NCBI RefSeq assembly: GCF_032191835.1
Contig: NC_083233.1
Span: 49,104,001-49,168,000 of the forward strand
Length of the DNA stretch: 64,000 bases
Direction: 5' to 3'
Source: Heteronotia binoei
Lineage: Eukaryota
The notes beneath the pieces are model-generated. The model did no database searches. It was given only the letters and a program-made list of their open reading frames with translations, and was not told where the DNA came from. Position 1 is the first letter of the stretch. Every line of letters starts with the position of its first letter. Shown piece after piece: positions 4,021-40,068 of the stretch. The translations under genes and the position numbers were made by a program.

Positions 4021-5129
4021 ATCTTAATCATTCAATTAAAATCAATGTGATAAAATCAGTAATGATATATACAACCACCAACGCAATATGTGAGTCACAG
4101 CTCACTCTGATGCAGATCAGTTTTCACTAATTTCAGTTTTTACTAAGTTCTACTTTTCCATGTGGCCCACGCTCTGGTGTTTCAGCAGGTACCTTAAGCC
4201 ATGCCTATTCCTCCTTCTGGTGTGAAGCCAGAGCCAAAGGATGAAACCAGGACCTAGCCTTGGTGTTGTCTAATAGTGTCACCACGACATGCTTCATTTT
4301 TGGGATTGACTTAGAAGCCTATGGAGCATCAGAGGAGCCAACCAGATAACTTTTTTATTAAACACTATTTTGGCTTTCTGTGCACAGCAGTACCATTTAT
4401 GAAATTTGTAAGCTGAAGTGCTACTTGTAATGTTTTTAGTCACGAGTGCACAGCAGCATTTTTGTAAATTGTAAGCTTCCAGTGTTGTTCTGCTATGAGT
4501 TTCCAGCTTGGAATCATGTATTGTAATATTGTAATATTTTCTTGGGTTGTAACCACCAACTCAATTTTCCTTTAGCTTTATAAACAATCATAAGCAGGGA
4601 TCATTTTGTAGAAAAATAGGTGGTAGAGCTCATCCAGGGATTGTTATGCAGCTACACCTACTATTCAATGGACAAGGTGGGGAGGAGGGGGAACCGTCAA
4701 AAAAGTTCTGGAGCTGTTCTCCTGTGAGCTCCTGCTGAATTCAAGGCATGATCATAAGTATAATTGAAATAGTAAAAAAGAAAGTGTGACATAGTAGATC
4801 CAGATGGGCAGTGTTGGTCTGAAGCAATAGAACAAAGCTGGAGTCTGGTAGCATCTTTAATACCCACAAAGTTTTATTCAGAATGTAAGTTTTGGTGCAA
4901 CAATTGATGGTTTTTCCCTTTGCAGTTTTTACATAGTGTACACTGAGGATCCCTATTATGCTGTAACCGCCAGGAGTGGAGATCTCCTGGGATTATAACA
5001 GAAAGCAGTGGAAGGTGGACTCAATGGTATTACACCCCATTGAGGTTCCTCCCCTCCTCAAACCCCGCCTTCCTCAGCCTCCACCCCACAAATATCCAGG
5101 TATTTCCGACTTTAAAAGAATTCTTACAT

Positions 5130-5720: not shown

Positions 5721-8700
5721 GCGGGAGAAAAATAGCCAGAAGCAATGCAATCCTCTGTAGAGATGCTCCAGTCTAAGCCCATTAGAAACAACCTGGAGCA
5801 GCCAACAGAACACAATGTTAGTTCCAGATGTGTGTTAATATGCTGCAGTAAAGTTAAACAGAAGTCCAGTGGTGTGAAGCTCGTTTAGTGGGCCTGTCAC
5901 TCTCTTTCAGCCTACCTACCTTATAGGGTTGTTGTGAAGATAAAAGGGAAAGAGAATGATGTATCCACTTTGAGATCCTTGGAGAAAGGGCAAGATTAGA
6001 AGTCTGCTACATAAATAGATGGCTGACAACATTTATTCTAGCCTAGTGCAAGTGTTTGTAAGTCAGCATTCACTTCATGAAATGCCTTACAGTGTACATC
6101 CATATATGCTTTATGCATGCATTATTAGCCTTTTGTGACATCAGATTTCTATTAGATTCAGTGTAGGATTGTACTATCATTCTGGCTGCCATCCTGGTTT
6201 CAGGTTTTACTGTAACACATGTGTGCATTTTCCTTGTGTGCAATGGCATCCTTATCAATAACTTTGCAGGACTTTTCAGGAAAGGATCCCCTTGTTCTAG
6301 AATACTTTTCTTTATCTGTAAAATGCTGGTGAGTAGTAGCGGGGAAGTAGCTGCAAGTAACTGAACTGATCTCAGGCTGTATGGGAGCTGGTGTAATTTA
6401 TTTTATTTTGCTTATTATCAGTCACTTTTTTCATCAACAAATATTGTACAACTGCTAGCATTTTTGAACTGTGCAAATATTCCTCTGAAACTGAACAGCT
6501 TGTAATTGAAAACAAACCCTGCCTTAGTGAACCTGCCCATGATAGGGTTACTCAGGAGAGCCAGTGTGATGATGAAGTGGTTAGAGTGTCAGACTAGGAT
6601 TTGGGAAAGCCAGGTTTGAATTTCTGCAAGCCTATAGAAGCTTGCGGGGTGTCCTTGAGCCAGTCACTTACCCTCTCAGCCTAACCTACCTAAAACAGAG
6701 GGTAACAGAACAATATAAGCTGCTGTGGATCTCTTTGGGGGAGAAAGATTAAAAGGAAGCAAAGAATTCACCAGTCCAGTAGATATGAAATGAAGCTGGT
6801 TCTTGCCAGTAGATGGCAACAGACACAAACAGTCAGAGAAGCATGTTTTCTCAAGCAATTTTTAAGAAGGTTTTGGGGCCGTCAGTTGTGTAATCAGCAT
6901 TAAAAGCATTTAGACGTAGCCCAGGTGTTTATAATGTTGCTTGGAAAAGTGACAAGGAGACCCAAAGTACTTAGAATGATGATCAACATGACAACACTTT
7001 TCATCTTCACATAATCAATCAAAAGTTTCCCTTGTTATCTATTCTCTTGTCTTAAATCTCTTATTTGCAAATGAATTAGCTGAGCATTTTAAAAGAGAAT
7101 ACGCATTGTAAATCCTAGCATGTTTAATTTCATTGGTGTAAGTTTTACTCATATACTCTTCTGTATCTTCATTTTCCTCTGTGAAGTTAGAAAATATATA
7201 ATTATGATGAGCAGGCATGAGGTGGACTCTCAATATGTTTTTTGTCTTTGTAGATCCAGTACCGAGGCCTATTTCAGATGATTTTAGTGCTAGGAATAGG
7301 TGGAAGCTTCCCTTATGGGTTCCATATTTCAGTAATCAACTACCCCTCCTCGGTAAGCTAATAGCATCTCTATGTCTCTTGGGATTGGATATTCAAGAGC
7401 ACTGAACATCTGTTTGACACTGTGTTTGTGATTCCCTTTTATGCCAATTTCCTGTTGTGAGAGTAGAAAAGAGCAAGAATCTAGTAGCATCTTAAAGACC
7501 CTGTCACAAATTTTGTTAGTCTTTAAGGTGCTACAGGATTCTTGCTCTTTTCTGCTGCTACAGACAGAGACAAACATGATGGTCAACATGACTTTTCATC
7601 TTCACATAATCAATAAAACATCTCTCTTGTTATCCACCCTTGTGGGAGAGAAAATAAGTATCTTGAGTAAAGTCTAAAAAACATTCTGCCAAAAATTTGC
7701 AAGAATTTCTTGTAGGCTTCTGTGAGCAAACTATGGTCCTAATTTCAGGCCACCTTAGTGCCTTTTATCTATTATATTTTCAAAGTATTCATCAAAATGT
7801 TTAGCATAGCATACCTACTGTAATGGTCAGTAGTCCTTGGAGCTTCTGCATAAGAGACTTCCTAAGCTTGCAACACAGGCAGACTGCAAAATCAGAATGC
7901 ATGCATTTATGGGAAATGCAGTGGCTCCCTGTGAGCTTCAAAGCACAGTTCAAGGAGTTGACTTTGAGCATTCTTATTACCCCTAAATTCCAATATCTGT
8001 TAATTTGACCAATTTGGCCCTTCATTGGTTAATAATGTGTGCTTCTGGCTTTTTAAAGAAATGGTTTTCAGGAAATGCTTCAATGGCATATGGATTTTAT
8101 TTATTGATTTGGTAGATTTATATTCCGCCCTTTCCCATGTGGGCTCAGGACAGATTACAGTCACAATAAAACAATTAAAATACAACAATAGCTTAATAAT
8201 ATGCAATTAAAAGAACAAAACACAATAATATATACACAGGCAGGCAGGCACAATTTATAGATTAAGAAGACATAGTATTCGGCCCATTGTGGGGGAGGAC
8301 AATAGATGGTATAAACAGTAAGATCAGAGCCTTCTTTGTAGAAAAAGTCCAGCAGGGCCTCACTTGCATATTAGGTCACACCCCCTGTCACCAAGCCAGC
8401 CGGAACTGTGTTCCTGTGCATTCCTGCTCAAAAAAAAGCCCTGAGTAAGATGGAAGGATGTCCATTTGCCTCAACCAAAAGCCTGGTGGAACAGCTCTGT
8501 CTTACAGGTCCTAATGACAGCTGAGCAAATGCTAGGCTCAGTATTTTTGTTATATGACTCTGAGAGGGTTTTTTGTTGTTATAAATCTGGAAGCTGCCTC
8601 GAGGTTTGTTTGTGCTGGAAGATGCAGGTTATAAATACTTTAAATAAATAGGCTATCTGGCTTTTCTGCATGTCTCTGATTAGAAAAAGCAAACAAAACT

Positions 8701-11700
8701 CATGAGAGGCTGTGACAGCCTGAAGATGTATCTAAACAGACAAAATACTGATTCTCAGAGTGTCCTGATCACTTCACTTGAATGGCAACTAAAAATGGTA
8801 AAATAATATGATATTGTAAAACATGTAATTTTTGTTTACAGTGTATTAAAACGTTTATCAATGAAACCTGGATGGAGCGGCATGGTTCACCCCTCTCTGA
8901 AGAGACTATCTTGTTAATGTGGTCCTTCATCGTGTCCATTTATGGCTTAGGAGGCCTGCTAGGAAGTGTTTCCTGTGGGTACCTTACCACAAGATACAGG
9001 AAGTAAGTATTTCCAATGCCTGGAACATACAAGTCTTCTCAACACTGTTTCAGAAACAGGACTCTTCAGAAATCACCCTCCTGCCTTATTATTTGGGTTG
9101 CATTACTAAAAAGGGACTCTCCATAGCATCTTGGCCTCACAAAAAGGTATCCTTCTATATTCACACTCCTCTACAGTACATTCCTGAGCCTAGCAATAAT
9201 GTCTGGAAGTCTCTACCCCACATGATGTGAGTTACCTGAAGCTGGAGTTGGACCCTGGTTGTGTTGGGATATAAGGAGGAACAGAGAACATTTACCACAG
9301 GAATCAACAACCTTTTGTGATTAACAAGCCAAGCTACAGCAAAATTCAGAATGACATCAACAAAGAGCCAGTATCAGAAAATCCAGTTGCCTAAATGAGA
9401 ACATAAAAATTAACATTGATCATTGACATGCTTGTTAATAATCCATAAAGTTTCTGCAATCCAAACCCTAATTATTGTGAGTATTTTATTAAGCAATGGC
9501 ACACACAAGGCCTTGCAATATGTAATACATGTACACAGGAGCACCCTATGCAGTTTTTTCAGTGTTCTGGCATACAGCTGTACATGATGTGTACTAGGTT
9601 GGATTCCTGGCAACTGTTCACCTGTATCATTTCCCTTTCTGCAAAGCATCTTCCAGAAGCCCTTTATTCCCATAAAAATTTTGCCTGCCATTCCCTTCAC
9701 ATACCAGGTATTATAGCATCACTTATTCTTCTCTAATATGCCCTCACTTACAGATTTCATTTCATTTTTTTTATTGTTGGTTCTATACTGCACCATATTT
9801 GGCTGTAGAACCGTAGGTTGCAGGCCCTAGATTTACCAAATGATAGCTTTGTGCAATATTCATTTGATGTTAGTTGTTTATATTATCCCACCAACTGCAA
9901 GGAAGAATTTTTCTTCACTTTTGTACTTGATCAAAATATGAGGAAGGAAAACCAAGGAGTCCTAAGATTTCCCTCCCTGGAGGATGCAGATGGCTGGCTT
10001 ACCAAGAAGCTCTGGTACATTGTGGTAAACCATCATCTGATTCTACACTTAATCATGCCACAAAGTGAGAAAGCATGCTGTTATAAATTGGAGCAATCAA
10101 GATGGTGCTCAAGAACCCACTGGGAATATCTGATAAGAACATAAGAGAAGCCATGTTGGATCAGGCCAATGGCCCGTCCAGTCCAACACTCTGTGTCACA
10201 CAGTGGCCAAAAAAAAATTATATATATACACACACTGTGGCTAATAGCCACTGATGGACCTCTGCTCCATATTTTTATCCAATCCCCTCTTGAAGCTGGT
10301 TATGCTTGTAGCCGCCACCACCTCCTGTGACAGTGAATTCCACATGTTAATCACCCTTTGGGTGAAGAAGTACTTCCTTTTATCCGTTTTAACCTGACTG
10401 CTCAGCAATTTCATCGAATGCCCACGAGTTCTTGTATTGTGAGAAAGGGAGAAAAGTACTTCTTTCTCTACTTTGTAAACCTCTATCATGTCACCCCGCA
10501 GGCAACGTTTCTCCAAGCTAAAGAGCCCCAAGCATTTCAACCTTTCTTCATAGGGAAAGTGTTCCAACCCTTTAATCATTCTAGTTGCTCTTTTCTGCAC
10601 TTTCTCCTTTTTTTGCCTTTTTAATTGCCTTTTTAATGTTATACTGACTTTGTTGCAGAAAGAAGTGCCAGATGTTCACCAACTTAATCATGCTAGTTGC
10701 TGCACTGTCCATGGCTTTTAGCAAGATGGCCAAATCCTTTGAGATGATCTTCCTTGGGCGCCTCCTTTGTGGAATTGGCATTGGTATGCAGAAAACATCA
10801 TGGCTGCCATAACACTGTGCAGGGCCATTTACAAAAGATTTGTATCCTTGTGGTCAGTCAGATTGACTCCTTAGGGTGTTAGTTTAAGTCCATATACAAC
10901 TCAATTGATGACTTGTAAAATTGTATCTATCTGACTAGCTGACTGAACAGCAGATGAGAGCAGAGAAGCTTTCCTCTGCTGGAGATACAGCTTTCTTCAG
11001 TGAGTTATGCAATGGAAATGTGGAAGAGGGTATTATTATGGGATGGCACCCTTGCTGCCATTTCCAACCTCAAATGTTTGGCTCTGCTTCTCTCCCAAGC
11101 CGTCTGCTGACCACCTACTCCTCTTGCATTCTCTTTCCCAAGGGTTTGTTTTCATGATCAGGAATTCCAGACAGCCAGTATAGTGCAGTGGTTAGAATGT
11201 AAGACTTGGGGGTTGGGGGAGCCTTAATTCAAATATACCTCCAAATCATGAATCTCATGATTCTCTCAGCCTAATCTACCTCATAATGTTGTGAATATAA
11301 AATGGAGGAGGGGAGAACAATGTAAACTACTGAAAGGTCAAAACCATTAAATCAGAAACCATTGTCTAAACAAGCAAGAAATCCTTGTTCTCAAGTAACT
11401 TACTATAAATTTAACTGCAGCCACTCTGTCATAAATGTATTGGATGTCAAAAATTGGATGTCATAAATTCACAAGTATTGGAACCTCAAGACACTTGTGG
11501 GGGGATATTTCAACATAAGTTTAGCTATATATTGAACTATTCACAAGTCACCTTTCAGAGGTGTAAAGCCAATAAAAGGCCAGTTCTGACTGACTGCTAA
11601 GTCAACCAGTACTTATATGCATAATGATATAACAGTTGAACAAAGTTGGAGTCAAGTGTACCTTTAAGACCAACGAAGTTTTATTCAGAACGTAAGCTTT

Positions 11701-14700
11701 CATGTGCTCCAACATTCATATTTTCCCCTCTTTACTTAAGGATTTTCTTTCAACATACACCCTCAATATGTGGGAGAGATTTCACCCAAGAAGCTGCGTG
11801 GTTTTACAAATGCCACAGTGGCTATCTTTTTGACCCTGGGCAAAGTCTCAGGGCAAGTTATTGGCCTCAGGTAAGTGCAGCTACATTAAAATGAAATCAT
11901 TTAAAATGCAATTAATATCTTTGATCACTTAAATTTTGAAGCTGCTTTCCTTGGTCACTGGGATTTGGGTGTTAGGTAGATTCAGTGCTTTGAGCCACCC
12001 CATCCCTGTTCACACCAAGCAGAGGGGCTTAGCTATTGTGTGCCTTGGCTGAGAATCCACATGTATACCCTCCTGGCCATTCATATATGCAGCATTCTGG
12101 TTTCAGGTACAGAATTCAGATTAATGATGTAAACCAGATCAGCTTTTTAAGATTTGCTGATTGCACAGCATGACATTTGACTGCACACTTTTGCATGCTG
12201 ATCTGTTTTCAACAAATTTGATTAAACTCTGCTTGCAAATTTAATCTTTCCAGGATCTGCTGAAGCTAAAAAATAATTCCAGTTCAAAACAAATGCTGGG
12301 TTGAAAATGTAAATAGTAACCTTGAATGTTTTATTTCCCATCTGATTTAATATATGGGACAGTATTTGGAACAATAATAAATTAAATAAGGTTGAAGTTA
12401 CACAGCAGCAACATCTTTTGAATTTCTTAAAATACAAAATACATGATATTTCATACCTCAAATAAAATGTGTTTGTTTCAGAAAGGGAAGAAGTCTGCAC
12501 TGAAAATCGCAGTCTTACAATTGAAAACAGCGATATTTTGACATACAAAACACTGGATTTTTATTTATTCATTTATATTTACCTTAAATTTGTATGCCAC
12601 CCACTCCATACGGACTCTGGGTGGCTCACAGTCACAATCCCACAATACAATACCTTATGGTTATAAAATCAAAACATATATAACAATTTATAATTTAAAA
12701 ACTTAAAAATGGTGCTATAAAATTTCTTACATAGGCGGTCCAGCTTCATTATAGTTCTTAATTCTCTGTATTGCTCTAAATTAAATTTGACACTAGAATT
12801 ATGAATTAATGTTCTTTTAAACTTTTCTGTTGGGAGGGGAGAGAAACAGAACATTTAAATTATTTTGTTCTGTGTTGGTTAGAGTTGTCAGATTCAGTAC
12901 AAGTCTTGTGCACTGCAGAATTGTGGCAGGAAGGCGAACTGGGGCTCACGTGTCTTTCGTAGAGATGTTTGTAACATGTTCTTATTAATTAGGTAAATTC
13001 ATGGAGCAGAGCTTGATTAGCATGATGACTAAAGGGAACCTTCACATTCAGAAGGAGTTAACCTCTAAATACCCGAGCTAGGAGGCAACATCAAAGGAGG
13101 GCTTTGACATCTTTGCCCTATTTGTTGGCCCTTTGGAGCAGCTTGTTGGCTGCTGTGTAAAACAGGATGCTGGACATGGACAACTGGTGTGGTCCAACAT
13201 AAGAAGAGCTTTGTTCTTACATAGCATGGCAGTAATAGAAGTGAGCTTCCTGACTATCAACCTTGCAGCACCTACATTATACAATTAAATTTGCAGTAGT
13301 AAAATTTGGCCCTTAGAAAATCCTGGCTCTCAGAAGCAAGAAAATGTGTGTGCTTGTACTGGATAGGCAGTGATTTGTTTCTACTAATTATTTTCTCAGG
13401 GAAATGTTAGGAAGTGAATCTCTATGGCCTTTACTGCTGGCTTTTACTGGATTCACAACTGTGATTCAACTGGTTACTCTCCCTTGCTTTCCTGATTCTC
13501 CACCATACCTTTTGATACAGAAGGGCAACGAGGAAGCCTTCAAGAAAGGTAGGAGACCTCCTCTCCCCTATTTTATTTCATAACAGTCTTTGTAAGAAAG
13601 ACAGTTTGGAGGTTATGGTGGAAAATATGAAGCGCCCCGTAACTGGGTAAGAATACGTCCATACTGCTGTCATTTGGGGACAGGACTGGTGACAGAACAC
13701 ATGGTGACAAAGAATGCTGGCCTATCATTTATTGTTTGGGACTCCTGGGTATCAGAGTGGCCTCAAAAGTCACAGGTGCCTGTAGCTCTCAGCCCCACTG
13801 CTTAAGTAGGTGCATCTGTAGTTGCCTTATCTTCCATATAAGTCAATTAAAAGTTGGCTGGGCAGATGGATAGATTCAGACATTTAGGTCCTTCCATGCC
13901 GCAGCTATCAAGCAGCTCTGGGGCGAAGGTGACCATCAAGCTGAGATCGAGGACATAAAAAAGGAGAAGGCAGCCATGGCGAGCTCCAAAAGTCTGCGGG
14001 TTCTTGAACTTCTGAAGACTCAGTCCTTGCGCTGGCAGCTCTATGTGATGATCACCGTCATGACCACGTTGCAGCTCTGTGGCATCAATGCAGTTGAGTG
14101 TTTGTTCACCATGGACCCTGCAGCTGTTGGGTTCCTACGTTCATCAGAGATGATGGAATTAAATAACTTGCTGCACACCCAAGCAGGGTTTTGTGGAATC
14201 AAAGAACCCATTCAGGAAAGGAAGCTTAAATAATCATCTAAGAAAATATCTGGAGTTTCCTTGGTTGTGTTTGCAGCCACTTTGGCAACTGAGCCACACA
14301 ATCTGCCCTGCTTTAAATTAGTTCTATGCTAGTGGCATCCCAAATGCATAAATTAGCAGTGTCCTCCCTTTGCCCTGACATAGGCTACTCTGTATTGAGA
14401 ACAGATGTAAAGCTAATACAAGTTTTAAGGGTTACTGGGAAGGATTTAGCCCTCAGTTCTAAACCTCAAGGAAGTAGGAGCATTTCTTTGGTGTCCAAGG
14501 AAGGCAATGATTCTTCAGCCTTTTAAAATGAGACACTTTTCTGACTTACTGTGCTTTTGAGACCTATTATTTGTTTTACAGTCGTATTGAGACTTTTGGA
14601 TTGCTTAAGTCTTATTGAGACTTGAGTGGATTACACTCAAAGGACCTTCACAGTACTTTCCCCCTGCTGATCAGAGAAACTCAGCAATCTCACACTGAAC

Positions 14701-17568
14701 AGGTTCATATTTTATTCTTTGTACTTCCTGTTTATGAATATATAGCATTACTGAGCATCATACTATATTTCATGGCCATTTTGCACATTATATGGAAGCA
14801 AACACATATTTGCCATTCACTGCATACTCTTTCAACTGACCATGTTCACCTCTCCTCTTCCCCCCTCTGAAAGTTGCAACCATTTTTGGGTCCTGACCCA
14901 CAGTTTGAAAACCCATCAGGTAAAGAAATGCTCCATGATACATGCACAAAGACTCCTTGCTACTGCTTGTGCAGAACATTTCCCTGCTTTCATGGGAAAA
15001 AATGGGGGCAGAGAATTCCTGTATATGTGAAACAGTGTGTGTGCATGCTGGATTCAGCCCTCAATTTATGAAACAACTCAAGTTTCTTTTTCTTCCCTTT
15101 TGCCTTTTCAGATCTACTTTTACTCTTTTGAAGTCTTCCGCACAGCCAAGTTTGAAGAAGCCCTCATCCCATACATATCCTTGGGTGTTGGTCTTTGTGA
15201 GTGTATCTCATCTGTATTGTGTGTAAGTTCAGAGCGTGCAGAAGACACTTAAACAGATTGCTTTTCTTGCTCCTGTTTTTACAAAGTCAGGTGAACAGTT
15301 AATGTCCTCACTCCACAGTCTCTTGATTTCCTTTTCCAGAGCTCCCTTATTGAGCGTTTTGGCCGGAAGGTGCTGCTATGGGGAGGCTATGCATTGATGG
15401 TTTTGGTGCTTGCTCTGCTCACACTAACTCTCTCACTCCAAGTAAGTAGAATTAGCCCTACTGTTGAAGAGGGTGCCTCAAACGGCAGATTTGGGGAGCC
15501 ATTAAGACTGGTGCAGTGAGGGAGGCATCCTGACCTGTGACGACACAATCCAAATACTCCATTTCAATGTATCTCTTTGTAGCCTCAAGAAATTGGCTCT
15601 CTCGCCCTGAACTTTAGCTATCTTGGCAACAACTTCACTTAACCAATCACATTTTTCCACTCCTTTCTCACTCTAGCATCGCTTCTTTTGGATGCACTAC
15701 TTCAGTGTCATTCTCATCTTCTTGTTCGTTCTCTTCTATGGAATTGGACCATGTAAGTACCTTAGCATAGAGCATGATAGGGTCCAGCCCAGGAGTTTTA
15801 AAGCCTAGCTTGAATGTCTGAGTAAGTGTAAACAGCCACCTAGGGGTACAGATCCCTGGATAACAAAGTAGGAGTCAAGTAACACCTTTAAGACCAACAA
15901 AGTTTTATTCAGAATGCAAGCTTTCATATGCACGTATACTTCTTCAGATGAGGGAATGGGGTACAGTGAGCAGAAATACATATAGCTGGTGAGTTAAGAG
16001 TATAAACTGATACAAAGTTAGGATCAAATGGCAAATGGTCTTCCAATTTATTACACTATTTTGCCATTTGATCCTAACTTTGTATCAGTTTAAACTCTTA
16101 ACCCACCAGCTATATGTATTTCTGCTCACTGTACCCCATTCCCTTGTCTGAAGAAGTATTCGTGCATACGAAAGCTTACATTCTGAATAAAACTTTGTTG
16201 GTCTTAAAGGTGATACTTGACTCCTACTTTATTCTACTGCTTCAGACCAACATGGCTGCCCATCTGGATTGATCCCTGGATAAATTTACTGTCTGGTACA
16301 GAAAGCCTCTGGCCACTTGGTCAAGAGGAGAGGGAGAAATGACTTGCTATTGCTAGTCTGCTAACAACTGTACAGCTTAGCTACTTCTGGATTAAGCTAC
16401 ATCCCTGTGATTCTTCCACAACCCTCTCTGGTATAATTGTCATGCTGTGGACCTGTGTTTGTGTGAGAGGGGAAGAGAGGGAGATTGGGAATGGTGCTCA
16501 GTGGATGATTAATATATCAAAGATATTACATTTTAGGGGTATGTAAAAGGCCTGCAGGCTGTGGCTGTTCCACTTCATCTACCCCCTCTCCCCATGGATA
16601 AGCTGCAGTACTATGCTGTGGGCCAACTAAAAAAATTTGCTGGGGGTGGTGGTGGATGCAGCCCACTTTCCTAAATGCCCATGTCTCAGCCACATATAAT
16701 ATAGGATGTAGAAGAGCAATGAGGAATCCATGTGCTATGGCATTTGTTCTTTTCTGCTTTCCCCAGCTGGTGCCACAATTTCTGTCATGGTTGAGATCTT
16801 CAGTCAGGCCTTCCGCCCCTCAGCTTTTGTGATTGTGGGGTTTATCAACTGGATGGGTCTCTTTCTGCTCGGGATGATCTTCCCATTCCTTGTGGTAAGA
16901 GATTTGAAACTGGCAATCAAATGAGCAATTTGCACAAAACATTTGGAGAAGCATGAGGTGCATAGACAGCTTCAAGAGGGGGTTAGATAAAAATATGGAG
17001 CAGAGGTCCATCAGTGGCTATTAGCCACAGTGTGTGTGTGTATATATATATATATATACACACACACACATACATTGGCCACTGTGTGACACAGAGTGTT
17101 GGACTGGATGGGCCATTGGCCTGATCCAACATGGCTTCTCTTATGTTCTTATGTGCTCTGTTGTTGTTAAGGCACTGTAATAATATAGTAGCTTGAAGCT
17201 GAAAGACAGGATATTTTTCATCTGAATTCCTGATCAATCCCTAAAAATTCAGAGTGTGGTCCTAATCTAAACATTGGACATAAACTTTAGAAACTTTTGG
17301 GCTTTGAAGATGCTTTAAAGGGAATTCTTATTTTTCTTTTCTCCCTAATTTCTGTTTTCAGGAATATCTTGGACCCTTTTGCTTCCTGATTTTCATGGGA
17401 ATTCTTGGTGTTTCAGGGGTATTCATCTACCTGTACCTGCCAGAAACAAAGGGGAAATCTATCTTGGAAATTACATTGGCGTTTGATAAGTTAAATTACA
17501 GCAAGAAGAAAGCTTTCCCTACAGAGAACAGTTTCCCTAATGCAACAGTATTTTGCACCAAGCTTTGA
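5669..17568 (+). CDS. SLC2A11-like facilitated hexose transporter (class II GLUT, GLUT11-like), 12 exons, 499 aa
   Basis: join(5669-5692,7254-7352,8842-9002,10659-10783,11741-11870,13400-13548,13905-14092,15112-15222,15340-15441,15677-15752,16767-16894,17362-17568) = 1500 nt, open frame, GT-AG introns. Motifs: GIGGSFPYG, N-glycosylation site INET, YVGEISPKKLRG, PDSPPYLL, QLCGINA, ERFGRK, GIGP, PETKGK. Confidence 0.93.
6555..6765 (+). mobile_element. tRNA-derived squamate SINE (Squam3-like)
   Basis: Head agccagtgtg...gtggttagagtgtcagactagga...ggtttgaat and body ctctcagcctaacctacc. Related copies at about 5860-6020, 11172-11335, 17700-17870, 33215-33490, 50330-50440 (-) and 61950-62165. Confidence 0.7.
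10134..10605 (-). mobile_element. 5'-truncated CR1 LINE 3' end
   Basis: ORF 10241-10600 (-) encodes the CR1 ORF2 C-terminus ([31 protein letters not shown]); the 3' tail appears as taagaacataagagaag on +. Confidence 0.9.
12550..12790 (-). mobile_element. L2-clade LINE 3' UTR fragment
   Basis: Reverse complement of the 3' UTR of the L2 copy at 62870-63090, by direct comparison within the window. Confidence 0.75.
15864..16270. mobile_element. Penelope-type (PLE) pLTR insertion with inverted 5' copy: a 171-bp-arm palindrome with a 13-bp TSD
   Basis: Arms 15865-16035 and 16060-16230 (8 mismatches in 171 by hand alignment), 24-nt loop. Perfect direct repeat GATCCCTGGATAA at 15851-63 and 16271-83. 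Confidence 0.85.
16145..16180 (+). ncRNA. Minimal type I hammerhead ribozyme motif (PLE-associated)
   Basis: UGU CUGAAGA A GUAU-ucgugc-AUAC GAAA GCUU ACA: helix I UGU:ACA, intact core with one extra A, 4-bp helix II, palindromic AGCU helix III, putative CUU site. Activity not demonstrated. Confidence 0.65.
16965..17157 (+). mobile_element. CR1 3' end fragment
   Basis: Same 3' UTR as the copies at 10134 and 21449, with a (TG)n(TA)n(CA)n tract and a ttctcttatgttcttatg tail. Confidence 0.85.
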
Positions 17569-18999: not shown

Positions 19000-19720
19000 T
19001 CGATTTCCAGCATTGCTGCGAAACCAGACTTTGGTGGCGGGTCATACATTCACCCGACACCCCCTCACTAAACTCCGGAAGGGATGACGTGAAGGAAGTG
19101 GAGTGCCATGGGAGATGTGCAGCCGGGCACGGACACCCTTCTTAGCGGGGCTGCTTGGAGATACGCCGCGCGCGGGTAGAAGGGGGCAGGGCTGCCGCTG
19201 GCCCTTTAAGCGCGTGCCCGTGAACAGCCTACAAAGCTGAGAGGCGCTCGGCTTTCTGCTCAGTGGGTGTTGCCGCCGCAGCCGTCGAGATGCCGATGCT
19301 CGTGATTAACACCAACGTGAGCCGCCAGGCCGTACCCGAGAATCTGCCCGGGGAGCTGACCCAGCAGCTAGCCAAGGCTACTGGCAAACCAGACCAGGTG
19401 AGCGTCGACGTGACATGGGAGCCTGCCTGGCTGGCTTCTCCCGCGCAGCCTTCCTTGGCAGGCCGGCCAGCGCCAGGGGAGGAGGATGGGTTGCGCTACT
19501 TTGGCCTCCCAGCGCTGGTTGCAACTTGCATTAACCTCATGTCTCGAAGTCGTGAAATGGACAGAGATTGGAGTAAAAAATCCACTGCACGAAGGTGCAG
19601 GATATTTTCATGTTATAAAAAATTCATTTTGATGTTGCTAATTTGGAGGCGGGGTAACGACGGCACAAAGCGCGGCGTGAGTGAAAGAGCGGTTTACTGC
19701 AGATCGAGATGGCAATTATT
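19000..19720. promoter_or_regulatory. MIF CpG island promoter
   Basis: CpG-rich; TGACGTGA (CRE-like, overlapping ACGTG) at 19085-92; GC boxes before the ATG at 19290. Confidence 0.7.
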
Positions 19721-21112
19721 GAGGCTGATCTAAAAAATCTTTATAATTAACCCAGCCTCGGAATAGAAGCAGCCTGACGCTCTGTCATTGCTCATTTCCT
19801 TTGCAGTATATTGCAATCCACATCGTGACCGACCAGCTGATGACTTTTGGGGGCTCGGCCGAACCATGTGCCCTGTGTAGCTTACACAGTATCGGCAAGA
19901 TAGGTGGGCCGCAAAACAAGGCTTACTCGAAGTTAGTGTGTGAGCAGCTTACTAAATACCTGCAAATACCTGCGGACAGGTGAGATGTACAGATCTTGTA
20001 TTTATGACTTTACTGAAACTCAGTGCGAATTATACAGTGTAAATCAATGCAATTGGAGTAGCATCACAGAAATTTGAAACTATACAAAAAGTAGATGTGC
20101 AGAAAATGATATTAAATAAGTAGTACATAAGGCAGTGGGAGTAAGATAATACGTACAGTAATGTAATGAGGAAGTTAGGTTCAGGTGGGTAGCCATGTTA
20201 GTCTGAAAGTTTGAGTCCAGTAGCACCTTTAAGACCAGCAAAGTTTTATTCAAGGTATAAGCTTTCACATGCAAGCACACTTCTTTGGATACAGTGTAAC
20301 TATTACATATAGGTAGGGAGAGGGCTAGTTTCCAGGAAGGGCTAGTTTGAGTCATGATGCATAGTACTGCGTGATTATAGTTGAGATTGGATTAAGGCTG
20401 TTGTTAAGACCTGTGAATAGCTGTAAATTAGCATACAAATGCAAGAGTTAAGAAACAGATGTGAGAACTTGTTTGAGTCCAGTGGTACCTCCAAGTCTAG
20501 CAAAGTTCAATTTTCAGTGTAAGTGACAATGGAGAGACTTGACTTCAGATACATTGAAACATATTTCCTCAAACATTACATATAAGTGAGGGGGTAGTTG
20601 CTAGGAAGGGCTAATTAAAGTCAAGATGCATAGGTAACTGAGCAATAAATACAGCTAAAATTGGAATAACAGATTTGGTGAGACCTGAGAATAATAGCAA
20701 ATTAGCATACAGATAATAAAGGAGTTAATATGTGCAAACTAAGCTTGAGACTAGTGGCACCTTTAAAACCAACTCCCTCTCCTCTCTCTACTTAATGGCT
20801 GAGGATGTCTTGTTTCAAAAGTGTGCTTACACACAAAAGCTTATACCTTGAATCAAACTTTGTTGTCCTTAAAGGTGCCACTAGGCTCAAACTTTGTTCT
20901 GTAATAAGGAAGTATTCTGGATGAAAGGTATCTACTAGTTTTTGGTCAAGTTGTTGCTCTCTGCATGGGAGCCAGCCTCGCTAATATGGATGGGAATGAT
21001 CTCTAGTGGCAATCACCTTCATCTGCTCTTGGTTTCTTTTCACAGGGTCTACATCAACTATTACGATATGAGTGCTAGTAACGTGGGGTGGAACGGATCC
21101 ACCTTTGCATAG
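19290..21112 (+). CDS. MIF: Macrophage migration inhibitory factor, 3 exons, 115 aa
   Basis: join(19290-19397,19807-19979,21046-21112) = 108+173+67 nt. [10 protein letters not shown] start with catalytic Pro2, CALC motif, KIGG, C-terminus [10 protein letters not shown]. Confidence 0.97.
20181..20905 (-). repeat. Tandem array of ~270-bp PLE-type units plus an inverted copy, in MIF intron 2
   Basis: Anchor GAGTCCAGT(A/G)G(C/T)ACC-like at 20213, 20475 and 20747 (periods 262 and 272). Shared internal anchors aggaagggcta, gatgcatag, aaattagcatac. Inverted + copy at about 20800-20905. Confidence 0.75.
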
Positions 21113-21448: not shown

Positions 21449-22605
21449 GGAACATAAGAACATAAAAGAAGCCATGTTAGATCAGGCCAATGGCCCATCC
21501 AGTCCAACACTCTGTGTCACACAGTGGCAAAAATTTTTATATATACACACACACACACACACTGTGGCTAATAGCCACTGATGGACCTCTGCTCCATATT
21601 TTTATCTAAACCCCTCTTGAAGGTGGCTATGCTTGTGGCCGCCACCACCTCCTGTGGCAGTGAATTCCACATGTTAATCACCCTTTGGGTGAAGAAGTAT
21701 TCCTTTTATCCATTTTAACCTGTCTGCTCAGCAATTTCATCGAATACCCACGAGTTCTTGTATTGTGAGAAAGGGAGAAAAGTACTTCTTTCTCTACTTT
21801 CTCCATCCCATGCATTATCTTGTAAACCTCTATCATGTCACCCCGCAGTTGACGTTTCTCCAAGCTAAAGAGTCCCAAGCGTTTCAACCTTTCTTCATAG
21901 GAAAAGTGTTCCAGCCCTTTAATCATTCTAGTTGCCCTTTTCTGGACTTTCTCCAATGCTATAATATCCTTTTTGAGGTGTGGCGACCAGAACTGCACAC
22001 AGTACTCCAAATGAGACCGTACCATCGATTTATACAGGGGCATTATGATACTGGCTGATTTGTTTTCAATTCGCTTCCTAATAATTCCCAGCATGGCGTT
22101 GGCCTTTTTTATTGCAAATGCACACTGTTTTGACATTTTCAGTGAGTTATCTACCACAACCCTAAGATCTCTCTCTTGGTCAGTCTCTGCCAGTTCACAC
22201 CCCATCAACTTGTATTTGTAGCTGGGATTCTTGGCCCCAATGTGCATTACTTTGCACTTGGCCACATTGAACCGCATCTGCCACGTTGACGCCCACTCAC
22301 CCAGCCTCAACAGATCCCTTTGGAGTTCCTCACAATCCTCTCTGGTTCTCACCACCCTGAACAATTTAGTGTCATCCGCAAACTTGGCCACTTCACTGCT
22401 CACTCCCAACTCTAAATCATTTATGAACAAGAGCATGGGACCCAGTACCGAGCCCTGCGACACCCCACTGCTTACTGTCCTCCACTGCGAAGACTGCCCA
22501 TTTATACTCACTCTCTGCTTCCTATTACTCAGCCAGTTTTTGATCCACAAGAGGACCTGTCCTTTTACTCCATGACTCTCAAGCTTTCTAAGGAGCCTTT
22601 GATGA
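21449..22605 (-). mobile_element. 5'-truncated CR1 LINE with reverse transcriptase region
   Basis: ORF 21678-22550 (-), 290 aa, with QGSVLGP and FADD motifs. C-terminal frameshift (KRNTSSPKG versus KRKYFFTQR in the copy at 10241); CR1 tail at 21449. Confidence 0.93.
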
Positions 22606-23797: not shown

Positions 23798-23946
23798 AGA
23801 ACAAAGTTGGAGTCCAGTAGCACCTTTAAGGCCAACATTCTGAATAAGCTTACATTCTCAATAAAACTTTGTTGGTCTTAAAGGTGCTACTGGACTCCCA
23901 ACTTTGTTCTGTTGCTTCAGACCAACATGGTTGCCCACTTGGATCC
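23798..23946. mobile_element. Short PLE-type insertion with inverted 5' copy and 11-bp TSD
   Basis: Arms 23798-23837 and 23870-23910; ATTGACAGCCA (23786-96) versus ATTGATAGCCA (23947-57). Confidence 0.8.
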
Positions 23947-35300: not shown

Positions 35301-38300
35301 GGCAGTTTTGTGACCTTCCACTGGCTGAGGCTTTTCAGCTCCCAAATGGAATTGATACGATCCTTATTCCTGTTTCTCAGCTGCGTGTGCTTTTGTAAGC
35401 CTCTGCATGGTTATACTAGGCATGGCTGCATAACCATTCAGTGTGTCAGTAAGAGTTTATTAATCCCTAATCCCATTGTTCAGTTTGGCTTTATTAAAGC
35501 CAAACTGAACATTTGCGGACTTTATCTTTTGCTCATTTGTACATGAGGGTAGATCATTGATGAAGCAGACCGCATGATTGACAGCATGCACCAGGACTGG
35601 CTATCCCAGGTTGTGAAGGCTGTGTACAGACCTGATGAAGGCACTGGACCTTGTCAGCTGTTCAGGAGGGCAGCTCAGGAGCCTATCACAGCAGCCAGGT
35701 GAGTGAGGCAGCAGGGACTAGGACAGAGATGTAGAAAGGTGGTTAACTGACAGCCAGTGGAGGCAGAGGGGCAAAAGATTAGGGTGCCCCTGAAAAAGCA
35801 CAGGAGGCAGAGCAGTGGAGATAACAGCTCCTCATTCTTGGAGGTTCAGTCAGCCTCTTTTATGACTTAAGCTTTAAAACTTCCATGGTCAGCAGTTCCT
35901 GGTAAAGATTCAACACCTGTGCTAGTTCTAGGATGCCCCCATGAACAGGCTGGAACCTGAAGGCTGTCCTATGGATTGCAAACCCATGACATGCAGGCCC
36001 GGTGCTAGAGAAGTCTTTTTGGGTGCGGGGAGGGAGGCGTGGGGCAGCAGTGGCCATGGAAGGCGGTGGCAGGAAGTGTTTTCGGGGAGGCAGTGGCAGC
36101 TCATGGCACCCCTAGGCCAAGTGGCGCCCAAGGTGGCCGCCTACTTGGCCTACTCCCATGTGCCAGCCCTGCTGACATGTAGCTGCATTCCCAGAGAATG
36201 GAACAGGCCTGGTAAAAAGCTGAAGAGCTCCTTTGCAGGAAGTGAATGCCTTCTGTTTTTCAGAGCCTTCTTCCCTCAGTTCCCTCTGCAAAAGCTCCTC
36301 TTCTCAGCCACACTGAGCCGGGATCCAGAGAAGCTGCAGCAACTGGGCCTCTATAAGCCTTGCCTCTTTACTTCTGTCTACTCCAAGATGCAGCCCGATG
36401 GCACTGTAGCACAGCAGGAGACTGAGAAGAAATATACCCTCCCTGAGGGGCTCTCGGTAAGAAATGTGGCTTTTATCACCATAATGCGGATGATTGGCAC
36501 AAAGTCTGGCACCTCCTCTGTCCAAAGAAGTGGCAGTGCATTTGGGGAGAGCCCAAGTCTGCTTGCTTGAGGGGTGTGTGTGTGTGACATGCAACTTTCC
36601 AGCATTCACTTTTACAGAAAGGCAATGACCAAAGTCCAGAAGATGTAAACAGAGGTTAGTATTTCAGGCAGTTCCCTGAAATAATATAGGGCATGGGCCA
36701 GGCAAGAGCAAAAGCAGAGTGACTTGGCTTGGGAAGCTGTTCAGAAAACAAGGCAAATGAGTCAGCAAATGTTTGGCGGCTTCCTAGGCCAACTGATTAC
36801 ACCATCTGCATGCATTCAGTGTTCTGCGGTTATTTCCTAGGATGCTGGTTTTGTGATTGAGCCTCTGTGACTTACGGGTGGAGATCATGTCAGTGGAACA
36901 CATCAACAGTTTTTTGTGATGGATAGAATCATTTGCAGAGATAACAGCCAGGCCTGGTGCATCCATTAGGCTGCAGTAGGTGGCTGCCTGGAGTACCAAG
37001 CTGGGGAGAAAGTGCTGGTTTGGGCCCTCCCACCCTCCCTTGCTTCCAAGCGGGTGGGAATAGTCTGCTCGGAAGTGGCAGCGAGACTCCCGGTCTCAGT
37101 GTGTGTGTTGCCGCCGCCTGCCATTGTTCCGCCTCTAGGATCACAGACGCAAGAGGCATAACAACAGTGGGCAGCAGCAGTGCACACTCTGAGACCGGGA
37201 ACCTTGCTGCTGCCCTCGCTGGTGCTGATATTGGTGCATCAGCAGCACCTTGTCTGGGGTGCCGGCCTTGGGCCACCACTCTAGTGCCACTGCTGATAAC
37301 AGCCGTGAGTAATTTGTAATCTGGTAACTTGTACTTGAGATAATAAAACCTGAAGCCTTGGAGTGGAACACAAAATTCATATCATTGGTGGCAAAAATGC
37401 ACTGAGTGATTTTTTTAATGAGCTTTTGAAAATTAGATTCTTTTAAAGATACGCATGAATGCCATCCTGTTGAGGAGCATGAGCAATTTGGTCTGCTGAT
37501 GGTTTAATGCTTCTGATCCTATCAAGGAATATCAGCTTTGTGGGCAGTGGCTATTTGTTCTTGTTTTCTGCAGCAATATTACGTGCCCTGCAATCTGCGG
37601 TCCAAGCCACTGCTCCTTCTGCATTTTCTGCTGAGAATGAAATTCAGCCGAGTGCTGTGTTTCACCAACAGCAAAGAAACTTCCCACAGGTGAGTGCTGA
37701 GCTTGACACCGGGCTGGGCTGGCTTGAGTCTTGGCTAGCAAGCCAAAAGGTATATCTCTCTTTCCCTCACTTTCCCCAGGTTGTTCCTGCTTGTTCGAGC
37801 CTTTGGAGGAGTGAATGTGGCAGAATTCTCTTCCCGATTGAGTCCAGCAGAGAGAAAACAGGCCCTGAAGGGGTTTCAACAAGGGAAGGTCCAGCTGTGA
37901 GTAGCCACTGAAAGCTTGAGAGTGCAGCTGTTCCATGCAAACCTGCTGGACTGCCCATTGATTGCAGGGGGTGGGCAGGTTTGTTTTTATCCCGATCTAT
38001 TTCCAAGGAGTTGAACACAGCAGACATATTTAGATGCTCCAATCTCTACATCACATTGGCTCTCCAATTAACAATAGAATTGGAGAAGCTAGTGAAGTTG
38101 TGTTGCACCTTCCAGGTTTGCATTAGGAAGTTCCTGGTCTTTTGTCATTTCTAGAGAAACTTACATGAGCCTTGCCTCATTGCCTCTGTTTCTAAATATG
38201 AAAAGCCATTGTTGCTAATCTATGTCTAACCCCCTCCCCCTCTGTATATTAATGGTCAGACATGGTTGGAGGTGTCCTGACTTGGATAGCCCAGGAAAGC

Positions 38301-40068
38301 CTGATTATATCAGGGCTCAGAAAGCTAAGCAGGGTCGGCCCTGGGCAGTACTTGTTTGGGAGACCACCAAGGAAGTCCAGGGTCGCTGCACAGAAGCTGG
38401 CAATAGCAAACCACTTCTGAACATCGCTTGTCTTGCATACCCTATGGGAGTTGCCATAAGTTGGCAACCTGACAGCAAAAAATCTCTCTTCAGAATTACA
38501 ATATTAATAATAACGTGGTGGGAGAAAGTGCTGTCCAGTTACGGTTGACTTATGTTGACCCAGTAGGATTTTCAAGGCACAAGACATTGCGAGATGGTTT
38601 GCCATTGCTTGCCTCTGCATCACAACCCTGGTATTTCTTGGAGGTCTCCCATCCAAATATTGGCCAGGGCTGACCCTGCTTAGCTTTCGAGGTTTGACGG
38701 GATCAGGCAAGCCTGGGCTTTCCAGGTGAGTGATGATAATAGCACAAGCAGCACAAAAGTGAATTAATGGAACAGGAGGAAGGGCATCCGCTTGGCATGC
38801 AGAAGGTTCCGCGTCCAGTCCCCTGGTATCTCCAGGCAGTAGATGATGTGAAAAACCTCTGCCTGAGACCCTGGAGAGCCTCTGCCAGTGTGAGTAGACA
38901 GTGCTAACTATGATGTACCAATGGTCTGATAAGGCAGCTTCATGTGTTAATGTGAGATCCGGAGACTGGCAATCATAGCCAGATCTACTTTGTCCCTGTT
39001 TGGGCTGTGACAAGGTGAGCACTTAATACCTTTCCTTTCAAACAGTTTAATCAGCACGGATGCCACCGCTCGAGGAATTGACATCAGAGGAGTGAAGTGT
39101 GTCATCAGCTATGATGCCCCTCAGTTTATCAGAAGCTATGTTCACCGGTAATGTCTCCCAAGAAAACAGTTTCTTTCCTCCCCACCCTCCCAAAGATTTG
39201 GATTCATTTGTTTCTGAGAGCTTGAAGTCTGAACCGGGCTGCTGGTGAAATGGGCTGTTCTTCTGCTGTCTTCTTTCAGGGTGGGTAGAACAGCTCGTGC
39301 TGGAAGAGCCGGCCTGGCCTTCACCATGCTGCTGAAAGTGCAGGTATGTTGTCTGCTGGCTTCTGGTTTCTTCCCAAAATTTGCGTCTGCTATGAACTGT
39401 GTTGGTTGCAGAGGTAAGTTGCTTGCTCTGCTTCCTGGAAGAGTTTCAAGCCTTGGGGTAGCAACAGCCCTGAAAAGGAAGCCTTCAGGGTCTGGGGTGG
39501 GTGGGACTGAAGCTGTGCTGTCTGGATGCTTTGCTCAATTGCAGGGCTATTTCTAAGAGTCCTTTTGTTTCTTGGGAAGGGGGGTTGGCTGACTGGCTCT
39601 CATTGTCTAGGAACGCAAATTCCTGAAGATGCTGAAAGAAGCTGGCCTTCCTGAGTTGGAACAGCAGCTAGTGAAAAGCGAGAGCCTCAAGCCTCTCCTC
39701 CAGCAGTATGAGGAAGCCCTGGCTGAACTCCAGAAAGTTGTCAAGGTACCACTGGCTTATGGGAGGGGACCTCAACTGTAGACAAAAGTAGGAATCTTTC
39801 ATTTGGAAGTCACTAGCAGCGGAAGAAGCAGCCAGGCATAGCTGACAGCTAAGAGGCCAGACCTCAAGACCACTGTATCAGGGGCAACCTTAGCAATTTT
39901 AGAGAGCACCAGGCCTGCATTGATTGAGTGTGGTGTATTTACACTCATGGGCAGAAGAATGGGCTGAGGGACAGTCTAACAATCAACTTACTGAGGCTCT
40001 CTGAGAACATTAGCCAGGCATGATTTTCTTTGTCTCAACAGGAGGAGCAAGTTATGAAGCGATTCTGA
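26157..40068 (+). CDS. DDX51: ATP-dependent DEAD-box RNA helicase DDX51, 16 exons, 688 aa
   Basis: join(26157-26179,28141-28505,29132-29325,29742-29892,30529-30674,31899-31970,33706-33812,34334-34442,35553-35698,36264-36456,37574-37689,37780-37896,39046-39147,39280-39343,39611-39745,40042-40068) = 2067 nt, open frame. MALFLVQRY start; motifs [46 protein letters not shown]. Confidence 0.96.
26860..27340 (+). mobile_element. Degraded L2-clade LINE fragment
   Basis: Decayed match to the LDYC...LHWLP region seen intact at 63442-63966. Other decayed L2 pieces at about 30880-31040, 32235-32700, 34680-35000 and 46330-46840. Confidence 0.6.
38283..38477 (+). mobile_element. 5S rRNA-derived SINE
   Basis: Head resembles 5S rRNA (agctaagcagggtcggccctgg...gggagacc), followed by a Sauria/BovB-like tail (ggcaatagcaaaccac). 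Third copy at about 45440-45625. Confidence 0.75.
38528..38725 (-). mobile_element. 5S rRNA-derived SINE, inverted relative to the copy at 38283
   Basis: Reverse complement reads gcctgatcccgtc...agctaagcagggtc...ttggatgggagacc plus tail; A-box and C-box-like elements retained. Confidence 0.75.
38775..38950 (+). mobile_element. tRNA-derived SINE (Squam2-like)
   Basis: gcttggcatgcagaaggtt...cctctgcctgagaccctggagagc...ataaggcagcttcatgtgtt; family assignment from memory. Confidence 0.55.

What the first reader, a model, noticed from the sequence alone, without database searches (positions are those of the whole stretch)
20181..20905. Retrozyme-like ~270-bp tandem array inside MIF intron 2
Seen: two full diverged units and the start of a third (periods 262 and 272) on the minus strand, then an inverted copy. 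Each unit is built on the same end sequence as the hammerhead palindrome. Cores are decayed: unit 1 reads GUAU CCAAAGA A GUGUGC..GAAA GCUU AUAC, and unit 2 keeps CUGAAG only. Established: tandem hammerhead-bearing repeats of a few hundred bp (non-LTR retrozymes, PLE partial tandems) give small circular RNAs. Inference: this is a fossil of a squamate retrozyme or non-autonomous PLE family whose intact members may exist elsewhere in the genome.
Basis: partly seen in the sequence, partly recalled or inferred. Interest (0 to 1): 0.7.

Follow-up and report, generated by a model that had tools for sequence, protein, structure and literature searches.

The report
Penelope retrotransposon tail with doubled UTR
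This is the decayed, cut-off tail of a Penelope-like jumping gene inside an intron of the MIF gene; its two repeats were already doubled in the parent element and the self-cutting RNA motif between them is broken across the family, so it is likely an ordinary insertion and not a circle-making retrozyme.

Summary
The repeat is real: two diverged units (188 of 248 aligned columns identical), a partial third head and an inverted arm, in MIF intron 2. It is one 724-bp insertion (20176-20899) between 14-bp direct repeats, with a tail at one end only. Elsewhere in this genome the same two units follow the stop codon of an RT + GIY-YIG Penelope-like ORF. They are fixed positional paralogues: order B then A in 36 of 36 pairs, never more than two in 82 groups, and each unit is closer to the same position in other loci (0.81-0.82) than to its neighbour (0.75). 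The inner 'hammerhead' is a chimera of the ribozyme's 5' half and the ORF end; it was complete in 0 of 38 copies. Exact-pattern scans found no unit-length array with the intact hammerhead half. A side result: three UTR forms suggest the element inserted its own end into its UTR and then doubled it.

The parts
20162..20175 (+). Left copy of a 14-bp direct repeat, likely the target-site duplication
   Evidence: 1 mismatch to 20900-20913; 0 of 200 random window positions reach 14 bp at <=1 mismatch in boxes of the same size
20176..20208 (-). Penelope-type 3' tail extension, present at this end only (12-nt deletion against a relative)
   Evidence: Alignment to L075; tail described in PMC8557442 and PMC11167929
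20209..20292 (-). Terminal minimal type I hammerhead (about 20255-20292; CUGANGA box mutated, GAAA kept; predicted cut between 20259 and 20258) and the conserved end sequence behind it
   Evidence: complete cores at this position in 13 of 52 terminal-type copies
20293..20470 (-). Unit body A (second, distal copy of the 3' UTR)
   Evidence: Mean identity 0.809 to second-position bodies, 0.743 to first-position bodies; tree
20471..20552 (-). Inner joint: hammerhead 5' half fused to the last ORF codons and UTR start, then a second copy of the end sequence; never has the GAAA box; 16-nt deletion in this copy
   Evidence: (0 of 38 joints with a complete core)
20553..20742 (-). Unit body B (first, ORF-proximal copy of the 3' UTR)
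   Evidence: Mean identity 0.814 to first-position bodies, 0.754 to second-position bodies; follows the GIY-YIG stop in relatives
20743..20773 (-). Remnant of the end-sequence piece that lies just behind the ORF stop in longer copies; the 5' truncation point of this insertion
   Evidence: relatives continue into the ORF end
20770..20899 (+). Inverted, 5'-truncated copy of the element's 3' end (end of body A, broken hammerhead, end sequence, no tail); overlaps the direct arm by about 4 nt
   Evidence: Local alignment to L014; inverted repeat I2; junction unique among 40 scored places
20900..20913 (+). Right copy of the 14-bp direct repeat
19290..21112 (+). Host gene MIF: exons 19290-19397, 19807-19979, 21046-21112; the insertion lies in intron 2, its direct arm antisense to the gene
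   Evidence: intron 1 junction seen in RNA reads

Best explanation
The stretch 20176-20899 is one 5'-truncated, 5'-inverted copy of the 3' end of a Penelope-like retrotransposon (RT plus C-terminal GIY-YIG), and its two units are that element's own doubled 3' UTR, likely written in one event by reverse transcription of a linear element RNA rather than by going round an RNA circle. Shown: the 14-bp flanking repeat, the tail at one end, the inverted arm, the ORF upstream in relatives, the fixed order and separate ancestry of units B and A, and the broken inner ribozyme. Inferred: the element's enzyme nicked AT-rich intron DNA, began copying at the tail, copied hammerhead, unit A, joint and unit B, and stopped about 30 nt into the next end piece; a second priming event or template switch added the inverted arm with about 4 nt of microhomology; the copy then decayed by roughly 10 percent. 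Inferred for the family: the doubling arose once in a master element by a template switch from loop II of the hammerhead to the last codons of the ORF, which removed the GAAA box, so only the terminal ribozyme could ever cut and no cut-to-cut unit RNA could be released. This copy is predicted to have no ribozyme activity and no function.
For: Flanking 14-bp repeat, 0 of 200 controls. Unit bodies have 1706 and 1734 first-look candidates in the genome, best scored relatives 84-88 percent. GIY-YIG C-terminus directly upstream of the first unit in 21 of 36 two-unit loci; Pfam GIY-YIG in L065 (above cut-off) and L069 (below cut-off, E 6e-4), RVT_1 and GIY-YIG in related-subfamily copies L058 and L056; L152 carries N-terminal, RT and EN pieces then B and A, L160 RT and EN pieces then B and A. 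In 38 loci picked by the endonuclease end, a unit body follows in 33. Order B then A in 36 of 36; at most two full bodies in 82 locus/strand groups; identity within a locus 0.752 versus 0.807 and 0.816 at the same position across loci; nearest neighbour at the same position for 66 of 68 bodies. Tree of 70 bodies splits by position, 2-3 label changes against about 23 shuffled, 0 of 500. Complete core in 0 of 38 joints and 13 of 52 terminal copies. Unit start preceded by the ORF-end type joint in 87 exact matches, by the GAAA half in 1, and that one lacks the 5' half and is single. Architecture matches published PLE insertions.
Against: Loci were picked by likeness to these units and only the best 40 per DNA search were scored, with 1.5-kb flanks for most, so rare arrays could be missed. 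No copy of this subfamily with a 5' pLTR and an unbroken ORF was found; L152 and L160 are frameshifted and interrupted, so autonomy is read from decayed copies. 15 of 36 two-unit loci show no ORF end upstream (truncated or interrupted). Two of 68 bodies break the nearest-neighbour rule, one matching its own neighbour (L090, 0.843), which fits an early stage of the doubling but also local copying. RNA reads show two low-count 'goes back' joints of 267 and 273 nt; I read them as reads from other copies, which was not proven. The RT mechanism steps are inferred from other PLEs.
Confidence: 0.9

Rival explanations
1. The locus is a fossil non-LTR retrozyme: a roughly 270-290-nt hammerhead unit that was copied from an RNA circle into tandem arrays by Penelope enzymes in trans.
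For: Unit length, low GC (0.37), tandem layout, hammerhead per unit in outline and a long flanking repeat fit the published description; retrozymes derive from PLE pLTRs and occur in 4 of 5 reptiles sampled. Two low-count backward joints of about one unit in RNA reads.
Against: Circle copying predicts near-identical neighbours and variable copy number; neighbours are the least alike pairs (0.752) and number never exceeds two. The inner core is never complete (0 of 38). Two intact GAAA halves at periods 247-308 occur only in three short minisatellites of 33, 40 and 76 bp. Units follow an ORF stop. The 267-nt joint links paralogous positions in mid-body, not the cut site.
Confidence: 0.04
2. The two-unit piece spread as a non-autonomous, ORF-less Penelope derivative with its own master copy, and this locus is one of its copies.
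For: Many copies carry little or no ORF (15 of 36 two-unit loci without the endonuclease end); non-autonomous PLE derivatives are described.
Against: All 39 other best places for the junction region stop at the junction (query 1-84 at most); 5' ends of copies are scattered from the UTR to the ORF's N-terminal part, as for 5' truncation of a full element.
Confidence: 0.05
3. The tandem arose at this locus by local duplication or a one-off template jump during this insertion.
For: Partial tandems made at insertion are common in PLEs.
Against: Each window unit groups with the same-position units of other loci, and the whole two-unit stretch aligns collinearly to L075 (469 identities, 104 mismatches).
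Confidence: 0.01

Closest known systems
EN+ Penelope-like elements, Neptune-like (Craig et al. 2021, PMC8557442; passages read)
   Same: RT then GIY-YIG; CX4CxxC linker motif in L069, L056, L058; 5' truncation; adjacent inverted truncated copy; tail at one end only; hammerhead in the terminal repeat.
   Different: The tandem here lies behind the ORF as a fixed, inherited doubling of the 3' UTR with a chimeric inner ribozyme, not a fresh partial tandem. Clade rests on the linker motif alone, which Nematis shares; no RT tree was run.
Anolis Poseidon PAc (Frangieh et al. 2024, PMC11167929; parts 1-2 of 4 read)
   Same: Lizard PLE with a hammerhead at the pLTR end, AT-rich targets, and a tail between two internal RT start sites; the two arms here end at two such points.
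   Different: PAc belongs to the Penelope/Poseidon clade; no doubled UTR is described in the parts read; sequence likeness to PAc was not tested.
Minimal PLE hammerheads (Cervera and de la Pena 2014, PMC4209133; parts 1-2 of 4 read)
   Same: Long helix II, short helix I, palindromic helix III, mostly single motifs from truncated PLEs, pairs on opposite strands 100-700 bp apart.
   Different: All three motifs at this locus are broken.
Animal non-LTR retrozymes (Cervera and de la Pena 2020, PMC7229834, passages; Li et al. 2026, 10.64898/2026.07.22.740005, parts 1-3 of 5)
   Same: Few-hundred-bp AT-rich tandem unit related to a PLE pLTR.
   Different: No two consecutive complete hammerheads, no arrays above two, units diverged by position, and attached to an ORF.
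Adineta vaga Penelope insertions with inverted pLTRs and 8-10-bp TSDs (Arkhipova et al. 2013, PMC3846280; passages)
   Same: Direct plus inverted terminal repeats, optional tail, TSD, microhomology joints.
   Different: Different clade and host; longer flanking repeat here (14 bp).

Membership tests
Non-LTR retrozyme | [quoted passage not shown] 2026) | tested here: not met
   0 of 3 motifs complete at this locus; 0 of 36 two-unit loci with both cores complete, 0 of 38 inner joints complete
Non-LTR retrozyme | Head-to-tail arrays of interchangeable units with variable copy number | tested here: not met
   At most two full bodies in 82 groups; units split by position; 11 exact two-unit signature matches at 11 separate places, none chained
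Non-LTR retrozyme | Non-coding element not attached to an ORF | tested here: not met
   Units follow the GIY-YIG stop codon in 21 of 36 two-unit loci; RT upstream in L152, L160
Non-LTR retrozyme | Abundant unit-length linear or circular RNA | tested here: inconclusive
   Patchy, low depth over the bodies and no clustered read ends at the cut site in three cDNA runs, about 6 percent of each read, not circle-enriched and with fixed differences from this genome
Non-LTR retrozyme | Self-cleavage in vitro | not testable with these tools
   Needs a transcription assay
EN+ Penelope-like element (3' fragment) | RT and C-terminal GIY-YIG in one ORF upstream of the terminal repeat | tested here: met
   Met in family members, not in this truncated copy; frames are broken in all copies seen of this subfamily
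EN+ Penelope-like element (3' fragment) | Minimal type I hammerhead in the terminal repeat, on the ORF strand | tested here: met
   Complete cores in 13 of 52 terminal-type copies; decayed in this copy; Rfam does not detect the minimal form
EN+ Penelope-like element (3' fragment) | 5' truncation with adjacent inverted copy and a 30-40-bp tail at one end | tested here: met
   inverted arms also in L149, L171, L174, L177
EN+ Penelope-like element (3' fragment) | Target-site duplication | tested here: met
   14 bp, 1 mismatch, 0 of 200 controls; no empty allele was available to confirm it
Neptune clade | CX2-5CxxC linker between RT and EN | tested here: met
   Motif found in L069 of four copies of this subfamily scanned (the other three gave none: broken frames or range) and in L056, L058
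Neptune clade | Placement in an RT phylogeny | not tested
   No reference RT set was on hand

The most novel reading that the evidence does not exclude
This family preserves, in one genome, an aborted birth of a retrozyme: a Penelope element first inserted about 52 nt of its own end, starting within 2-4 nt of the hammerhead cut site, into its own 3' UTR between 9-11-bp direct repeats, then doubled the whole UTR, and the doubling stayed tied to the ORF only because the break fell inside the inner ribozyme. The self-inserted piece would then be a genomic footprint of hammerhead cutting in vivo, which RNA-seq has not shown for the Anolis element.
Probability: 0.25. Interest if true: 0.5.

Novelty: new member of a known kind. 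Interest (0 to 1): 0.2.

Why it matters
The locus itself is an old, inert retrotransposon fragment. It matters modestly as a caution: a hammerhead-bearing tandem of about 280 bp can be the doubled UTR of an ordinary Penelope element, and comparing units by position tells the two apart. The family's three UTR forms could be used to test how PLE terminal repeats grow and how retrozymes arise from them.

Tried and rejected
Rfam found no hammerhead in the window and Tandem Repeats Finder missed the array: both are too strict for it, so they say nothing against it. My first tandem pattern covered periods 247-277 only and would have missed the family's usual period of about 290; one search extended it to 308. 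Three arrays found that way were checked as possible intact retrozymes and rejected: they are 33-, 40- and 76-bp minisatellites at single loci, with no unit showing both catalytic boxes in the printed arrays (read by eye). L184, the one place where a GAAA half precedes a unit, lacks the 5' half and is single. L158 and L149, flagged as having extra heads, are two-unit copies interrupted by other insertions. I considered reading the inner joint as a hammerhead with a longer helix III; rejected, because its 3' part is the ORF end and UTR start seen in single-unit copies. The backward joints in RNA reads (267 nt; 273 nt) have 2-7 reads per run and unmatched letters between the sides; not taken as circles. 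The intron 2 splice joint was not listed although exons 2 and 3 are covered; unexplained. The tree for the three UTR forms clusters by form but is unrooted and weakly resolved, so it does not give the order; 16 of 60 loci could not be staged and were left out, and L065 may be mis-staged. The Terminon paper (PMC5850863) was not held. No supplements were read; Li et al.'s tables of reptile retrozyme families could bear on whether this unit is listed there.

Full report
Observation. The heads at 20209, 20471 and 20743 and the inverted arm are in the sequence. The two full units align with 188 identities in 248 columns, score 208.5 against a shuffled maximum of 51.5. The host gene is MIF: exons 19290-19397, 19807-19979 and 21046-21112 splice at GT-AG to a 115-codon frame, exons 1 and 2 hit Pfam MIF, and the repeat lies in intron 2. 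None of the three hammerhead-like motifs at the locus has both catalytic boxes.

One insertion. A 14-bp direct repeat with one mismatch flanks the structure (20162-20175, 20900-20913); 0 of 200 random positions gave 14 bp. Between the repeats, the minus strand reads: inverted arm, about 31 bp of end sequence, body B, joint, body A, hammerhead, end sequence, tail. The inverted arm (20770-20899) is the 3' end of an A unit without the tail and overlaps the direct arm by about 4 nt. This is the layout described for Penelope-like elements: 5' truncation, an adjacent inverted copy and a 30-40-bp tail at one end (PMC8557442, passages; PMC3846280, passages). In the Anolis element the tail lies between two internal RT start sites (PMC11167929, parts 1-2).

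The family. Each body has about 1700 first-look candidates in this 2.63-Gb genome; the best scored relatives are 84-88 percent alike, so the family is abundant and old. In many of these loci the sequence upstream of the first unit translates to the C-terminus of a GIY-YIG endonuclease ending just before the unit. A search with that peptide gave 150 scored matches of 6268 candidates; long frames hit Pfam GIY-YIG and RVT_1. Most of those long-frame copies belong to related subfamilies with other 3' UTRs, and L058 has a hammerhead on both sides of its ORF. For this subfamily, 38 loci picked by the endonuclease end were read further: a unit body follows in 33. L152 holds N-terminal, RT and EN pieces followed by B and A; L160 holds RT and EN pieces followed by B and A. 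All such frames are broken. A CX4CxxC linker motif points to the Neptune clade, though Nematis shares it and no RT tree was run.

Retrozyme or doubled UTR. I collected 118 bodies of at least 120 nt after dropping 13 loci that repeated a place or were near-identical duplicates. Of 82 locus/strand groups, 46 have one body and 36 have two; none has more. All 36 pairs are in the order B then A; 21 have the endonuclease end upstream. In 34 close pairs, neighbours are 0.752 identical, while first units of different loci are 0.807 and second units 0.816; 66 of 68 bodies have their nearest relative at the same position. A tree of 70 bodies splits by position (2-3 changes against about 23 shuffled, 0 of 500), with matching subgroups on both sides, as expected if the doubling was inherited through successive master elements; bootstrap values were rough. 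Pairwise distances put the masters' A and B about 8 percent apart and each copy's decay near 10-11 percent. Circle copying predicts the opposite pattern (inference).

The inner motif is not a decayed ribozyme. Across copies it is the hammerhead's 5' half, broken at loop II, joined to the last ORF codons and UTR start. A complete core follows 0 of 38 joints but 13 of 52 terminal-type positions; 0 of 36 pairs have two. This fails the published criterion of two consecutive complete motifs (Li et al. 2026, parts 1-3). Genome-wide exact patterns agree: two GAAA halves at periods 247-308 occur only in three short minisatellites; the body signature in tandem occurs 11 times, never chained; the unit start follows the ORF-end type joint 87 times and a GAAA half once, and that one is a single unit with half a hammerhead. 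Exact patterns miss decayed arrays, but a young intact array of this family should match. The inversion junction of this locus is not spanned by any other of 40 scored places, against a non-autonomous master of this shape.

RNA. Three raw cDNA runs and one contig set were laid on the gene and three runs on a single-unit copy. The reads carry fixed differences in MIF exons, so they are not from this individual and perhaps not this species; about 6 percent of each run was read; the libraries are not circle-enriched. Depth is high only over the shared end sequence, from reads of many other copies; the bodies are patchy with near-zero stretches; no cluster of read ends lies at the cut site. Two backward joints of 267 and 273 nt have few reads and unmatched letters, and the first joins paralogous mid-body positions. 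This is weak evidence either way.

How the UTR likely grew. Three forms exist: ORF stop followed directly by one body (8 exact matches; L045, L170, L179, L183); the same with a piece of about 52 nt of the element's own end inserted between two copies of a 9-11-bp repeat (173 exact matches, which include inner joints; L010, L146); and the doubled form seen here. The inserted piece starts 2-4 nt upstream of the predicted cut site, which is also beside the helix III palindrome, so it does not by itself show cutting. A tree of 44 staged loci clusters by form (0 of 500 shuffles for the empty and doubled forms) but is unrooted and weak: self-insertion then doubling is the simplest order, while repeated deletion between the direct repeats remains possible. 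Searches for a printed description of such a doubled PLE UTR found none (listings only, open-access library only).

Verdict. A real feature, but the 3' fragment of an ordinary Penelope-like element with a family-wide doubled UTR. The locus is predicted to be inert. Interest 0.2; the family's staged UTR history is the only part that could interest a specialist. Earlier scan notes on other genomes describe similar Penelope-derived tandems; they were seen after my reading was formed and were not checked. Nothing was noted earlier for this genome or sequence.

Noticed in passing
L097:1843-3002 (G000 C16, 54.736-54.737 Mb): Minisatellite whose 40-bp unit is the bare minimal hammerhead, 29 copies; two alternating variants, one keeping CUGAAGA but not GAAA, the other keeping GAAA but with C3 changed; no unit has both. 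Whether neighbouring variants could complement each other in a dimer fold was not tested.
   Followed up: partly
L098:2628-3459 (G000 C1, 8.791 Mb): Minisatellite of 74-76 bp, 11 copies, from a Penelope end; stems kept, GAAA kept, first box changed at G8-A9.
   Followed up: partly
L099 (G000 C5, 13.395 Mb): Minisatellite of 33 bp, 22 copies printed, holding only the 3' half of the hammerhead.
   Followed up: partly
window 4829-4897, 7508-7541, 11638-11706, 15862-15944, 16143-16266, 23798-23912, 56795-56828: Other fragments of the same Penelope end sequence; 23798-23898 is a near-perfect hairpin; motifs with both catalytic boxes at 16148 (+) and 15947 (-), on opposite strands about 200 bp apart.
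   Followed up: no
window 61090-61257 (-): Truncated 7SK RNA-like sequence, 90 bits, above the Rfam cut-off; likely a pseudogene or repeat head.
   Followed up: no
window 38286-38383 (+) and 38617-38735 (-): Two 5S rRNA-like pieces below the Rfam cut-off, in opposite orientation.
   Followed up: no
window 17000-17154 and 21452-21592: Two young copies (95-96 percent alike) of another repeat in inverted orientation on either side of the MIF gene, each with a CA/TA microsatellite.
   Followed up: no
L058:1663-5152 (-): A full-length-looking Penelope element of a related subfamily: repeat with hammerhead, broken RT + GIY-YIG ORF with a duplicated C-terminal piece, repeat with hammerhead.
   Followed up: partly
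window 19980-21045: No exon 2-exon 3 splice joint was listed in the RNA lay although both exons are covered and the intron 1 joint was seen.
   Followed up: no
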